Positions 249-1,152 of a stretch of DNA of 64,000 nucleotides are shown here, one piece after another (the stretch's first letter is position 1; each line of letters begins with the position of its first letter). This stretch comes from a plasmid. The stretch lies in sequence record AP025967.1; one strand, 5' to 3'. A program made the translations under genes and the position numbers. The notes below the pieces were generated by a model that saw nothing but the letters and a program-made list of their open reading frames with translations, did not search any database and was not told where the DNA came from.

Positions 249-544
249 AATATTAATTCTTTCTGGATTATTTTTAGTTTTTAGATAAGAATTTAAGTGT
301 ATGATTAGGGTTTTTATGAGTTTTTCTCTATTTTTTTATTTTCAAGAAAACTCAAGAGGACTGTGATTTATAGTTAAAATAACCAAAAGAACATACTTGA
401 AAAATTAATAATACAAAAAACATATACTTTTTAAAAAATAAAATTTTTCAAATATAGAAAATCAATAGAAGAAGAGAAGTTTAGTTAAAAGTTTGTTTGG
501 TAAGCCAAAGGGATTGTTCTAAACCCTGCAAAAGCAGGGGATAC

Positions 545-604
545 TCAATAAGCCTTGACATAGCAAAGCATTAAGAGTATAATTATTAGAACAATTTTGA
601 GCAT
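545..604 (-). CDS. Small hydrophobic peptide, 19 aa (MLKIVLIIILLMLCYVKAY). Type I toxin candidate, Ibs-like.
   Basis: ATG at 604-602, stop TGA at 547-545 (plus-strand coordinates). Strong SD GGGAGGTG lies 6 nt upstream of the ATG (complement of plus 611-618). The peptide is almost entirely hydrophobic and ends in AY, like Ibs toxins. A paralogous ORF exists 320 bp away. Confidence 0.55.
   Translation of the reverse strand: MLKIVLIIILLMLCYVKAY
555..583 (+). promoter_or_regulatory. Consensus sigma70 promoter, -35 TTGACA (555-560), 17-bp spacer, -10 TATAAT (578-583). Predicted to drive antisense RNA A.
   Basis: Perfect TTGACA-N17-TATAAT read directly. Located inside the opposite-strand peptide ORF. 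The same arrangement is repeated at 877-905. Confidence 0.6.
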
Positions 605-676
605 TAAACTCACCTCCCTTCTGGGCGGTAAATTAACGCTAAAGGGTTGCAGCCCCTTTGGCGTTGCACCCTTTTA
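590..676 (+). ncRNA. Predicted cis-antisense small RNA A (antitoxin candidate). Covers the start codon, SD and 5' UTR of the minus-strand peptide gene.
   Basis: Transcript start predicted ~7 nt after the -10 box. Contains CACCUCCC, complementary to the toxin SD. GC hairpin 637-663 (CGCUAAAGGG / CCCCUUUGGCG) followed by a U run at 672-675 acts as a terminator-like 3' end. Confidence 0.45.
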
Positions 677-678
677 TA

Positions 679-687
679 ATTATACCA
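679..687 (-). promoter_or_regulatory. Extended -10 (TGgTATAAT on the minus strand) for toxin A mRNA
   Basis: Plus-strand attatacca is TGGTATAAT on the minus strand. Lies ~65 nt upstream of the peptide ATG. TG-extended -10 boxes are typical of Campylobacter promoters. Confidence 0.4.
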
Positions 688-866
688 AACAAATTCTTTG
701 ACTTCTTAATACATTTTATTTATGATTGAATCTTATCTTTTAGCATAAGCAAGAAAAATATAAATTAAAAAATAAAATAATTCAATAGAAAGGAAGATAG
801 GCTTAGTTAAAAGTTTGTTTGATACCGCAGGTAACCCACTCCAGTTGCCCCAAAAATGGGGCTTGG

Positions 867-935
867 TTAATATGCCTTGACTATAAATAAACAAAGCAGT
901 ATAATAACCACTAGAATGAGTTGTACGAACCTCAT
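867..935 (-). CDS. Small hydrophobic peptide, 22 aa (MRFVQLILVVIILLCLFIVKAY). Type I toxin candidate, paralog of 545-604.
   Basis: ATG at 935-933, stop TAA at 869-867. SD AAGGAGGT lies 6 nt upstream (complement of plus 942-949). Shares the C-terminal VKAY with the 19-aa peptide. Confidence 0.55.
   Translation of the reverse strand: MRFVQLILVVIILLCLFIVKAY
877..905 (+). promoter_or_regulatory. Consensus sigma70 promoter, -35 TTGACT (877-882), 17-bp spacer, -10 TATAAT (900-905). Predicted to drive antisense RNA B.
   Basis: Read directly. Embedded in the opposite-strand peptide ORF B. Confidence 0.6.
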
Positions 936-1003
936 TGAGTTACCTCCTTTCAGGGGTTTCACAATTTAGCCGTAGGGGGTCAGCCTGCGGCTTAAACCCT
1001 TAA
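912..1003 (+). ncRNA. Predicted cis-antisense small RNA B (antitoxin candidate)
   Basis: Hairpin AAUGAG/CUCAUU at 915-938. Anti-SD ACCUCCUUUC at 942-951. GC hairpin 968-992 (AGCCGUAGG / CCUGCGGCU, one G-U pair). Same architecture as RNA A, with compensatory stem changes. Confidence 0.45.
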
Positions 1004-1007
1004 TGTA

Positions 1008-1016
1008 ATTATACCA
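1008..1016 (-). promoter_or_regulatory. Extended -10 (TGgTATAAT on the minus strand) for toxin B mRNA
   Basis: Plus-strand attatacca at 1008-1016. Same position relative to the peptide ORF as in unit A. Confidence 0.4.
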
Positions 1017-1152
1017 AACAAATTCTTTAACTTCTGAAACAATTTATGAAAGATTTTTGTATAAGTTTTAATATTTTAATGAAAATTTAGGTGTAAGCTA
1101 TAAACAAGAAGCCTTTCGAGCTAGCTAAGAATACTTGGCTTTAGTTAGGAAC

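What the first reader, a model, noticed from the sequence alone, without database searches (positions are those of the whole stretch)
470..1030. Two tandem type I toxin-antitoxin-like modules: Ibs-like hydrophobic peptides, each with a cis-antisense RNA
Each ~320-bp unit carries the same set of parts.
- A minus-strand ORF for a 19-aa or 22-aa almost purely hydrophobic peptide (MLKIVLIIILLMLCYVKAY; MRFVQLILVVIILLCLFIVKAY), ending in AY as in E. coli Ibs toxins.
- A near-perfect SD (GGGAGGTG or AAGGAGGT) 6 nt upstream of the ATG.
- A TG-extended -10 promoter for the peptide mRNA and a terminator hairpin downstream.
- On the plus strand, a perfect TTGACA-17-TATAAT promoter inside the peptide ORF, pointing antisense across the start codon, SD and 5' UTR. 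The antisense transcript ends at a GC hairpin.

The two units have diverged (~60% identity), yet every stem is kept by compensatory changes: CCCTGC/GCAGGG versus GCCCC/GGGGC, and CGCUAAAGGG/CCCCUUUGGCG versus AGCCGUAGG/CCUGCGGCU. That argues for selection on RNA structure.

A perfect -35 box is unusual in Campylobacter, where -35 elements are generally weak. Plasmid-addiction modules of the hok/sok or ibs/sib type fit the plasmid context.
Basis: partly seen in the sequence, partly recalled or inferred. Interest (0 to 1): 0.88.

Follow-up and report, generated by a model that had tools for sequence, protein, structure and literature searches.

The report
Tandem antisense-controlled toxin peptide genes
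Two unannotated neighbouring mini-genes on a Campylobacter plasmid each pair a tiny membrane-type peptide with an opposing small RNA, the layout of plasmid "addiction" modules; they belong to a large family on Campylobacter and Helicobacter mobile DNA that works like a known Helicobacter system.

Summary
Window 480-1016 holds two tandem units (58% identical). Each has a minus-strand 19- or 22-aa hydrophobic ORF with a strong SD and a TG-extended -10 promoter. Each also has a plus-strand TTGAC(A/T)-17-TATAAT promoter inside the ORF, reading across the start codon, SD and 5' UTR.

The units belong to a family of more than 45 distinct copies. These lie on Campylobacter and enterohepatic Helicobacter plasmids (pTet, T6SS megaplasmids), prophages (CJIE4) and integrated elements. 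All encode ...IILLC.I.VKAY peptides.

In the pTet homologue, published dRNA-seq places transcription starts exactly where I predicted. One is a very abundant 82-nt antisense RNA (CJpt2). The other is an opposing mRNA start.

The same 5' segment can also pair locally. This is the logic of hok and of H. pylori aapA1/IsoA1.

The peptides only look like Ibs: no Pfam/NCBIfam or BLASTP match, and the antisense does not span the ORF. The RNA layout is AapA/IsoA-like, but no sequence or profile homology to H. pylori aapA1 was found. Toxicity and 3' processing are untested.

Verdict: a genuine type I toxin-antitoxin-like family, a new member of a known kind, of moderate interest.

The parts
679..687 (-). 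Unit 1: toxin-mRNA promoter, extended -10 TGGTATAAT; predicted TSS about 673
   Evidence: Read from the sequence. This block is conserved in the jejuni/coli units. In the pTet homologue the equivalent TGGATATAAT drives a mapped TSS 6 nt downstream.
653..663 (-). Unit 1: 5' arm of the mRNA (CGCCAAAGGGG). It can pair with the local arm or with the 3' UTR partner.
637..646 (-). Unit 1: local 3' arm (CCCUUUAGCG). With the 5' arm it forms the 5' hairpin; on the plus strand the same region is the 3' hairpin of the antisense RNA.
   Evidence: 85% of cells paired; 4 of 5 pairs with compensatory change.
611..618 (-). Unit 1: Shine-Dalgarno GGGAGGUG, held in a hairpin with the upstream anti-SD ACCGCCC (620..626)
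545..604 (-). Unit 1: ORF MLKIVLIIILLMLCYVKAY plus stop (19 aa)
524..540 (-). Unit 1: hairpin after the stop codon (CCCCUGC-UUUU-GCAGGG), terminator-like but without a U tract
499..512 (-). Unit 1: 3' UTR partner CCCUUUGGC (512..504) plus UUACC. It pairs with the 5' arm and with GGUG at the 5' end (long-distance interaction).
555..583 (+). Unit 1: antisense promoter TTGACA-17-TATAAT inside the ORF. The -35 lies on the V-K codons and the -10 on the I-I codons.
   Evidence: homologous promoter mapped in pTet.
591..672 (+). Unit 1: predicted antisense RNA (about 82 nt), complementary to the first about 82 nt of the mRNA (5' UTR, SD, first 4-5 codons)
   Evidence: Ends inferred from the pTet sRNA CJpt2, 26519-26600. 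Fold.
1008..1016 (-). Unit 2: toxin-mRNA promoter TGGTATAAT; predicted TSS about 1002
984..991 (-). Unit 2: 5' arm GCCGCAGG
968..977 (-). Unit 2: local 3' arm CCCUACGGCU
942..949 (-). Unit 2: Shine-Dalgarno AAGGAGGU
867..935 (-). Unit 2: ORF MRFVQLILVVIILLCLFIVKAY plus stop (22 aa)
847..862 (-). Unit 2: hairpin after the stop codon (GCCCC-AUUUUU-GGGGC)
823..830 (-). Unit 2: 3' UTR partner CCUGCGGU, which pairs with the 5' arm (long-distance interaction)
877..905 (+). Unit 2: antisense promoter TTGACT-17-TATAAT inside the ORF
913..1002 (+). Unit 2: predicted antisense RNA (about 90 nt)
   Evidence: By analogy with pTet CJpt2. Fold.

Best explanation
Each unit is a type I toxin-antitoxin module whose RNA organisation matches H. 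pylori aapA/IsoA and, in its end-to-end pairing, hok/sok.

The parts:
- The minus strand gives an mRNA of about 180-190 nt for a 19-23-aa hydrophobic peptide, presumed to damage the membrane.
- A much stronger promoter inside the ORF gives an antisense RNA of about 82-90 nt. It is fully complementary to the mRNA 5' UTR, SD and first codons.

Proposed working:
1. The antisense RNA pairs with the mRNA, probably starting from the complementary hairpin loops. This blocks ribosome binding and creates an RNase III substrate.
2. The SD and AUG also sit in an intramolecular hairpin.
3. The 5' arm of the mRNA pairs with a segment about 30 nt past the stop codon. This gives a closed, inert, stable full-length mRNA.
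4. Loss of the 3' segment would free the 5' arm to form the local hairpin. That would give the translatable, antisense-sensitive form.
5. After loss of the plasmid or prophage, the short-lived antisense RNA would decay first. The peptide would then be made and would arrest or kill the cell.

The two units share at most 7 nt of exact sequence in their antisense RNAs, so they should act independently.

What is shown: the anatomy, the conservation, the covariation of the alternative helices, and both transcription starts in the pTet homologue.

What is inferred: toxicity, the relative RNA stabilities, 3' processing, RNase III involvement and the addiction phenotype.
For: - Anatomy confirmed.
- Family: about 25 units in 12 plasmid loci and about 30 more in Campylobacter and Helicobacter genomes. 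297 plasmids are hit by one variant. Copies also lie in prophages.
- Peptides are 19-23 aa with ...IILLC.I.VKAY.
- Coding: a start codon 2-12 nt after the SD is in frame with the conserved stop in 42 of 44 units, against 0 and 3 in the other frames. With ATG only the counts are 37, 0, 0.
- Long-distance pairing, test 1: a cognate 5' arm has a near-perfect complement in its own 3' UTR in 70% of 47 units, against 12.7% for non-cognate pairs. Class-level permutation gave 0 of 2000.
- Long-distance pairing, test 2: RNAalifold on an unguided MAFFT alignment predicts only this helix, with compensatory change at 5 of 7 pairs.
- Long-distance pairing, test 3: 92% of cells are paired, against 39-52% for slid controls over the whole tested structure.
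- Local hairpin: 85% paired, 4 of 5 pairs compensatory.
- Both full-length mRNAs fold better than shuffles (z -5.3 and -4.3) and show the end pairing and a closed SD/AUG hairpin.
- Experiment on a homologue (PMC3656092, Tables S5 and S12): TSS at pTet 26519(+), step height 85,985, promoter CCTTGACT-17-TATAAT, sRNA CJpt2 26519-26600 (82 nt); TSS at 26600(-), step height 483, promoter TGGATATAAT. I had predicted 26518 and 26599, each +/- 2.
- The H. pylori-type aapA1 locus shows the same three-segment logic: 5' CCCCCAUAAG, local UUAUGGGG, 3' CUUAUGGGGG. Published features of aapA1 are in PMC5416894.
Against: - No peptide of this family has been shown to be toxic.
- The thermodynamic models do not predict that removing the 3' partner opens the SD or AUG. 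Mean unpaired probability of the SD is 0.23 in both forms. The end pairing appears in the MFE structure of only 15 of 37 units.
- For unit 1 the minimum-energy fold flips between states depending on 2 nt at the 5' end.
- The SD hairpin is poorly supported column by column in the MAFFT alignment (54% paired). Part of this is a register difference between subfamilies.
- No canonical terminators were found.
- CJpt2 was not seen on a Northern blot. The probe used lies mostly outside the 82-nt RNA, so this is weak evidence against.
- No transcript data exist for this window itself.
Confidence: 0.78

Rival explanations
1. It is a small membrane peptide under antisense control that is not a toxin. 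It might be a regulatory or accessory membrane peptide of the mobile element, for example one that modulates conjugation or secretion. The antisense RNA would simply tune its level.
For: - Toxicity is untested.
- In pTet-type and lari-group plasmids the unit sits inside the T4SS gene cluster.
- Many small hydrophobic proteins are not toxins (general knowledge).
Against: - The same unit occurs in unrelated contexts: T6SS megaplasmid backbone, prophage CJIE4, integrated elements. It is often present in several diverged copies per replicon. That pattern is typical of selfish toxin-antitoxin modules.
- Expression is blocked at several levels at once: SD hairpin, end pairing, and an antisense start signal about 180 times stronger than the mRNA start. 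This is what is seen for toxic products.
Confidence: 0.12
2. It is a non-coding antisense RNA pair that controls a plasmid function in cis or in trans, such as replication, copy number or T4SS expression. An example would be a ctRNA-like countertranscript, or a strong promoter plus attenuator feeding downstream genes. On this reading the small ORF is incidental.
For: - Weak Rfam similarity to ctRNA_pGA1 (17.4 bits, E 1.3, far below the gathering score of 45).
- In pTet and pCL2100 the strong antisense promoter points toward the next T4SS gene.
Against: - The SD and an in-frame start codon are conserved in 42 of 44 units despite length variation in whole codons.
- Peptide length, hydrophobicity and C-terminus are conserved.
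- In this window no gene lies downstream in the same orientation as the antisense RNAs.
- The units are not next to replication genes.
- There are multiple copies per replicon, and copies in prophages.
Confidence: 0.07
3. The units are decayed, non-functional remnants of a mobile module ('ghost' copies), kept only by hitch-hiking on the plasmid.
For: - Some relatives are clearly degenerate or chimeric: L005 has a TTG start, a KAS ending and a mismatched 3' partner; L003:2662 has a mismatched partner.
- Ghost copies are known for hok and aapA (PMC5416894).
Against: - Both window units keep every part intact: promoters, SD, ATG, ORF, hairpins and a matched 3' partner.
- They are 99-100% identical in about 20 plasmids of C. 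jejuni and C. coli.
Confidence: 0.03

Closest known systems
aapA/IsoA type I toxin-antitoxin family of Helicobacter pylori (Sharma 2010; Arnion 2017, PMC5416894)
   Same: - Host group: epsilonproteobacteria.
- An antisense RNA of about 80 nt starts inside the toxin ORF and is fully complementary to the mRNA 5' UTR, SD and first codons.
- The mRNA 5' end pairs with a 3' segment that lies about 30 nt beyond a poorly terminating hairpin.
- The same 5' segment can form a local hairpin instead.
- The antisense RNA is in large excess.
- Copies occur in tandem or multiply, and on mobile elements.
- Arnion et al. state that structure-based searches found such systems on a C. jejuni plasmid and in some C. 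jejuni chromosomes. This is probably the same family, but their supplement was not available to me.
   Different: - The peptide is 19-23 aa and ends VKAY. AapA1 is 30 aa and ends LLKR.
- The mRNA is about 185 nt, against 253 nt.
- The antisense overlaps 4-5 codons, against about 11.
- No sequence or profile homology was detected. nhmmer finds nothing at E <= 10 in an 8.5-kb H. pylori-type aapA1 locus. A covariance model of the 5' 90 nt scores at most 16 bits there, off register or on the wrong strand, against 76 and 49 bits on the window units.
- In silico, truncation does not open the SD.
ibs/Sib of E. coli and relatives
   Same: - A peptide of 18-19 aa that is almost purely hydrophobic and ends in an aromatic residue.
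- Tandem duplication in one intergenic region.
- A cis-encoded antisense RNA.
- Fozo 2010 (PMC2887945) noted 'apparent Ibs homologs' in H. pylori.
   Different: - No Pfam or NCBIfam match at E <= 10, and no BLASTP alignment to IbsC (IbsC sequence from memory).
- Sib spans the entire ibs ORF (PMC8594479). Here the antisense starts at codon 4-5 and runs away from the ORF.
- This family has a conserved Cys and a Lys at position -3. Ibs peptides do not (from memory).
hok/sok of plasmid R1
   Same: - A plasmid-borne type I module.
- The full-length mRNA is closed by 5'-3' end pairing.
- Mutually exclusive 5' structures.
- An expected need for 3' trimming.
- A strong antisense promoter.
- A post-segregational killing role (as described in PMC5416894, and general knowledge).
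   Different: - Hok is about 50 aa and is translated through an overlapping leader ORF (mok), which Sok targets. Here the antisense covers the toxin's own SD and start codon. I did not look for a leader ORF.
- No sequence similarity.
CJpt2 sRNA candidate of C. jejuni 81-176 pTet (Dugar 2013, PMC3656092)
   Same: It is the antisense RNA of the pTet member of this family. The R2 model scores 75 bits on that unit, and its peptide is MSYTNLIVIIILLCIIIVKAY. It provides the only transcript evidence for the family.
   Different: It was listed only as an sRNA candidate and an 'internal TSS to cmgB5'. No ORF, toxin or antitoxin role was proposed. The window units are diverged paralogues on another plasmid type.
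cjrA/cjpT type I system of pVir (Shen 2016; cited in PMC7826846)
   Same: [quoted passage not shown]
   Different: It is unrelated. pVir contains no member of this family: nhmmer finds nothing at E <= 10, and the covariance model scores at most 17 bits.

Membership tests
Type I toxin-antitoxin system (general) | Small hydrophobic ORF with its own SD and start codon | tested here: met
   Peptides of 19 and 22 aa, 86-89% hydrophobic, with SD 6 nt upstream. The start codon is in frame in 42 of 44 family members.
Type I toxin-antitoxin system (general) | Antisense RNA transcribed across the toxin mRNA | tested here: met
   Promoters scoring 12/12 and 11/12 in the window. The homologous promoter in pTet has a mapped TSS and an 82-nt RNA. 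Not measured for this window itself.
Type I toxin-antitoxin system (general) | The peptide is toxic and the antisense RNA neutralises it | not testable with these tools
   Needs expression experiments.
aapA/IsoA | [quoted passage not shown] | tested here: met
   The pTet sRNA ends exactly opposite the mRNA TSS.
aapA/IsoA | 5'-3' long-distance pairing in the full-length mRNA, lying beyond a weak terminator-like hairpin | tested here: met
aapA/IsoA | 3' truncation refolds the 5' UTR and exposes the SD | tested here: inconclusive
   An alternative local helix exists and covaries. Thermodynamic models predict no change in SD or AUG accessibility. Needs structure probing.
aapA/IsoA | Sequence or profile homology of the mRNA to H. 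pylori aapA loci | tested here: not met
   nhmmer finds no hit at E <= 10. Model R2 scores at most 16 bits, off register.
aapA/IsoA | Peptide of the AapA type: 22-30 aa (PMC3417511), basic N-terminal part, C-terminal K-R essential (PMC8309996) | tested here: not met
   The family peptides end in VKAY, VKCY or VKAF and have no basic N-terminal segment. AapA1 sequence as.
ibs/Sib | Peptide matches a curated Ibs toxin model or aligns to Ibs peptides | tested here: not met
   No Ibs or other toxin family in Pfam or NCBIfam matched six family peptides at E <= 10; the only listed matches were two unrelated ones with E above 5. No BLASTP alignment. Such short, low-complexity peptides give these tests little power.
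ibs/Sib | Antisense RNA spans the entire toxin ORF | tested here: not met
   The antisense TSS lies at codon 4-5 and transcription runs toward the 5' UTR. The Sib description is from PMC8594479.
hok/sok | [quoted passage not shown] | tested here: met
hok/sok | Hok-family peptide of about 50 aa, translated through an overlapping leader ORF that the antisense RNA targets | tested here: not met
   The peptide is 19-22 aa and the antisense covers the toxin's own SD. I made no dedicated search for a leader ORF.

The most novel reading that the evidence does not exclude
This could be a distinct, previously uncharacterised type I toxin family (peptides ending ...IILLC.I.VKAY), not yet catalogued under aapA/IsoA. 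It would be the main RNA-controlled addiction module of Campylobacter and enterohepatic Helicobacter mobile elements: tetO-carrying pTet plasmids, T6SS megaplasmids, CJIE4 prophages. Its most conserved peptide residues (V-K and I-I) would be fixed because their codons are also the -35 and -10 boxes of the antitoxin promoter. Its mRNA would switch between three mutually exclusive 5' helices.
Probability: 0.3. Interest if true: 0.6.

Novelty: new member of a known kind. Interest (0 to 1): 0.45.

Why it matters
- These modules are unannotated in every plasmid record checked. They are also missed by toxin-antitoxin surveys of Campylobacter, which found only type II systems plus cjrA (PMC7826846).
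- They sit on the main tetracycline-resistance plasmids (pTet type) and on T6SS megaplasmids of a leading food-borne pathogen. If they act as addiction modules, they help explain why these plasmids persist without selection.
- They identify the function of the most strongly started transcript mapped on pTet (CJpt2).
- The family also gives a compact, naturally varied data set, with more than 20 distinct 5'-arm sequences. It can be used to study how an mRNA chooses between a local helix and an end-to-end helix.

Tried and rejected
- Rfam: no family at gathering score in the whole window. Only chance-level hits in 300-1300, the best relevant one being ctRNA_pGA1 at 17 bits, E 1.3.
- Pfam and NCBIfam on six peptides: no Ibs or other toxin family; only two unrelated matches with E above 5.
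- BLASTP of unit 1 against IbsC: nothing.
- The search for homologous proteins and the search for related loci refuse peptides under 40 aa. I therefore could not check database names for the peptides.
- The supplements of Arnion 2017 and of the T1TAdb paper are not held. I could not verify whether their 'Campylobacter aapA/IsoA' loci are this family.
- A full-text search for the peptide motifs and for 'CJpt2' found no paper.
- RNAalifold on the 5' 90 nt alone gave no consensus pairs, so model R1 was sequence only. This probably reflects competing helices and register shifts. I supplied a two-hairpin structure by hand for R2.
- Test of homology to H. pylori aapA1 by nhmmer and R2: negative.
- Test that 3' truncation opens the SD or AUG in silico: no effect.
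- Test that pVir's validated cjrA/cjpT is the same family: negative.
- The search for TSSs of the CJIE4 copy in the RM1221 tables found nothing. Those tables are truncated in the held text.
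Full report
**1. What is in the sequence**

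The window is a Campylobacter megaplasmid. Positions 400-1100 are 99.6-100% identical to 18 C. jejuni and C. coli plasmids of 73-192 kb, and nothing is annotated under the match in any of them.

Reading both strands confirms the two units.

Unit 1:
- Minus-strand ORF 604..545, MLKIVLIIILLMLCYVKAY.
- SD GGGAGGTG at 618..611, 6 nt before the ATG.
- Extended -10 TGGTATAAT at 687..679.
- Hairpin after the stop codon at 540..524.
- Plus-strand TTGACA (555-560), 17 nt, TATAAT (578-583), inside the ORF.

Unit 2:
- ORF 935..867, MRFVQLILVVIILLCLFIVKAY.
- SD AAGGAGGT at 949..942.
- TGGTATAAT at 1016..1008.
- Hairpin at 862..847.
- TTGACT (877-882), 17 nt, TATAAT (900-905).

The consensus scan ranks the two plus-strand promoters first (12/12 and 11/12). 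It finds no canonical intrinsic terminator.

The units are 58.5% identical from mRNA start to 3' partner, and their antisense regions are 56% identical. The longest exact stretch the antisense regions share is 7 nt. Their two flanks are almost identical.

The -35 of unit 2 is TTGACT. The hairpins lack U tracts.

**2. It is a family**

- blastn and nhmmer found about 25 units in 12 plasmid loci. The hosts are C. jejuni, C. coli, C. lari, C. peloridis, C. armoricus, C. helveticus and C. upsaliensis, often with several units per plasmid.
- A pattern scan of one genome per species, followed by nhmmer, added about 30 more. These come from the C. jejuni chromosome, C. concisus, C. gastrosuis, Campylobacter MAGs and enterohepatic Helicobacter (H. 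rodentium, H. mesocricetorum, H. turcicus, H. valdiviensis and others).
- One variant hits 297 plasmids, 257 of them conjugative, including pTet of C. jejuni 81-176.
- Copies also lie in CJIE4 prophages and H. pullorum prophages, and next to T4SS genes in an integrated element.
- In the window the pair sits between a tyrosine recombinase and a VgrG/T6SS block.
- There are only two copies in the 64 kb.

**3. The ORF is a real coding unit**

All units encode 19-23-aa peptides of the form x(3-8)-IILLC-x-I-x-VKAY, with variants VKCY and VKAF.

Lengths differ by whole codons. A start codon 2-12 nt after the SD is in frame with the conserved stop in 42 of 44 units, against 0 and 3 in the other frames. 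Counting ATG only gives 37, 0 and 0. In the subset found without any pattern constraint the counts are 18 of 20, 0 and 0.

The most conserved residues coincide with the antisense promoter. GTCAAG (V-K) is the complement of the -35 box TTGAC. ATTATA (I-I) is the complement of TATAAT. Peptide and promoter therefore constrain each other. One caveat applies: my genome scan required these motifs, so only the plasmid set is unbiased on this point.

**4.

Both full-length mRNAs fold well below shuffled controls (z -5.3 and -4.3). In both, the 5' arm pairs with a segment about 30 nt past the stop codon. For unit 1 this is GCCAAAGGG 662..654 with CCCUUUGGC 512..504. For unit 2 it is GCCGCAGG 991..984 with CCUGCGGU 830..823. 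In both, the SD and AUG are locked in a 5' UTR hairpin.

Across the family three segments covary together: the 5' arm, the local 3' arm and the 3' UTR partner. Examples are GCCAAAGG / CCUUUAGC / CCUUUGGC, GCCACAAGG / CCUGUGGC / CCUUGUGGC, GCCGUAGG / CCUAUGGC / CCUACGGC and GCCGGAGG / CCUCCGAG / CCUCCGG.

Tests:
- A cognate arm has a near-perfect complement in its own 3' UTR in 70% of 47 units, against 12.7% for non-cognate combinations. A permutation over 21 arm classes gave 0 of 2000.
- RNAalifold on an unguided MAFFT alignment of 31 mRNAs predicts this long-distance helix and nothing else. Compensatory double changes occur at 5 of 7 pairs.
- The pair counts are 92% paired for this helix. Slid controls over the whole tested structure give 39-52%.
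- The competing local hairpin is 85% paired, with 4 of 5 pairs compensatory, against 21-50% for its slid controls.

The long-distance partner is usually the better complement. In unit 1 the local helix has a C.A mismatch that the distal helix lacks.

A third option is that the extreme 5' end (AAGGGU) pairs with ACCCUU of the local arm. This is nearly isoenergetic in unit 1, and by eye it also covaries (for example GAGGU/ACCUC in C. concisus). I did not test it formally.

**5. Transcription, from published data on a homologue**

The pTet unit has every part. Its peptide is MSYTNLIVIIILLCIIIVKAY, and its arm and partner are GCCAUAGGG and CCCUAUGGC. Model R2 scores 75 bits on it.

From the promoters I predicted an antisense TSS at 26518 +/- 2 (+) and an mRNA TSS at 26599 +/- 2 (-).

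Dugar et al. 2013 (PMC3656092) report the following in Tables S5 and S12:
- A TSS at 26519(+), preceded by ...CCTTGACTATAATTATACAAAGGAGTATAAT..., with step height 85,985. No other plasmid TSS I read exceeds about 4,400.
- A TSS at 26600(-), preceded by ...TTTTTGGATATAAT..., with step height 483.
- An sRNA candidate CJpt2 at 26519-26600, 82 nt.

The antisense RNA therefore ends exactly opposite the mRNA +1, and its start signal is about 180 times stronger.

The authors noted 'not detected on Northern blot'. Their probe (TGGATATAATTTTGTGGGGTTAGC) lies mostly upstream of the mRNA +1, which is beyond the 3' end of the sRNA. This is my inference. They proposed no ORF and no toxin-antitoxin role.

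By analogy, the window should give antisense RNAs at about 591-672 and 913-1002, and mRNA starts at about 673 and 1002.

**6. How it most likely works**

The anatomy is that of a type I toxin-antitoxin module. An abundant antisense RNA covers the SD and start codon of a weakly transcribed mRNA for a membrane-type peptide. That mRNA is also self-inhibited (SD hairpin) and closed end to end.

This matches the mechanism established for H. pylori aapA1/IsoA1:
- a 253-nt mRNA closed by an 11-bp 5'-3' helix;
- a weak hairpin at +225;
- removal of about 30 nt at the 3' end;
- refolding into two 5' stem-loops;
- kissing-loop pairing with IsoA1 over 76 nt;
- RNase III cleavage (PMC5416894).

I retrieved an H. 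pylori-type aapA1 locus (peptide [30 protein letters not shown]). It has the same three-segment design: 5' CCCCCAUAAG, local UUAUGGGG, 3' CUUAUGGGGG.

What I could not support is the activation step. In thermodynamic models, removing the 3' partner does not change SD or AUG accessibility. The end pairing appears in the minimum-energy structure of only 15 of 37 units.

So the long-distance helix may serve mainly to stabilise or terminate the mRNA and to hide the 5' hairpin from the antisense RNA. Alternatively, the switch is kinetic and invisible to equilibrium folding. That step is inference.

**7. Comparison with known families**

- Ibs/Sib: the resemblance is in size and hydrophobicity only. 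Pfam and NCBIfam gave no Ibs or other toxin match and BLASTP gave no alignment. Sib spans the whole ibs ORF (PMC8594479), whereas here the antisense starts at codon 4-5.
- aapA/IsoA: the architecture is the same, but nhmmer finds nothing at E <= 10 in the H. pylori-type locus. A covariance model of the 5' 90 nt scores at most 16 bits there, off register, against 76 and 49 bits on the window units, 75 on pTet and 53 on CJIE4. The peptides also differ in length and termini.
- Arnion et al. state that their structure-guided, iterative search found aapA/IsoA systems 'on a Campylobacter jejuni plasmid' and in some C. jejuni chromosomes. That description fits this family (pTet, integrated elements), but their supplement is not available to me. 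I put the chance that it is the same family at about two in three.
- The validated pVir system cjrA/cjpT is unrelated.

**8. Verdict**

The interpretation as tandem type I toxin-antitoxin-like modules is supported, and is strengthened by family-wide covariation and by published TSS data.

'Ibs-like' should be replaced by 'aapA/IsoA-like architecture with an Ibs-sized peptide'.

This is a new, unannotated member, and arguably a distinct toxin family, of a known kind. It is useful for annotating Campylobacter plasmids and as an RNA-switch data set, but it would not surprise a specialist. Interest 0.45.

Noticed in passing
window 481-503 and 679-700; 799-821 and 1008-1030: The two conserved ends of each unit are near reverse complements of each other: AAAAGTTTGTTTGGTA on the left and TACCAAACAAATTCTT on the right. 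The left end therefore looks like a degenerate, outward-facing copy of the toxin-mRNA promoter, with TAAGCC or TACCGC in place of TATAAT. The 3' block CAAACAAACTTTTAACTAA is 100% conserved between units that are otherwise 58% identical. Its function is unknown. It could be a processing site, a recombination junction or a promoter relic.
   Followed up: partly
L133 (NC_008790.1 pTet) 26404-27375; L002 3204-3872: The annotated pTet T4SS gene (cmgB5, 972 nt) runs through the whole toxin unit on the antisense strand. The corresponding gene in C. lari pCL2100 is 669 nt and starts just beyond the unit. The pTet start is probably over-extended. The very strong antisense promoter points toward this T4SS gene.
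   Followed up: partly
PMC3656092 Table S14 and Table S12: The Northern probe used for CJpt2 (TGGATATAATTTTGTGGGGTTAGC) overlaps the 82-nt sRNA by only about 9-10 nt. This may explain 'not detected on Northern blot'.
   Followed up: partly
L005 1984-2263; L003 2662-2944: These are chimeric or degenerate units. L005 combines the 5' arm of one subtype with the local arm and 3' partner of another, and it has a TTG start and a KAS ending. L003:2662 has a mismatched 3' partner. This suggests recombination between tandem modules, followed by decay.
   Followed up: partly
L136 (CJIE4-2 prophage) 1496-1700; H119-H123: Family members lie in Campylobacter CJIE4 prophages (peptide MSYQKFIIIIILLCVIIVKAY) and in H. 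pullorum prophage records. The module is therefore not restricted to plasmids.
   Followed up: partly
L134 about 6995-7059(-) and 4749(-): The H. pylori-type contig carries a second aapA-like copy (AAAAGGAGTTTGCCATG...) about 2.3 kb from aapA1.
   Followed up: no
window 698-726 (+): A third promoter-like site (TTGACT-17-TATGAT, 10/12) lies between the units, pointing toward the 3' end of unit 2. It is not conserved at the equivalent place after unit 2.
   Followed up: no
window 1392-2288 (-); L135 7993-8613: The next gene downstream is a short VgrG fragment (annotated as 'VgrG protein', 621 nt, in NZ_CP082878.1). Upstream lie a tyrosine recombinase and, further on, a YafQ-type type II toxin. 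The pair therefore sits at the junction between the plasmid backbone and the T6SS block.
   Followed up: partly
I did not examine whether they share something else.
   Followed up: no
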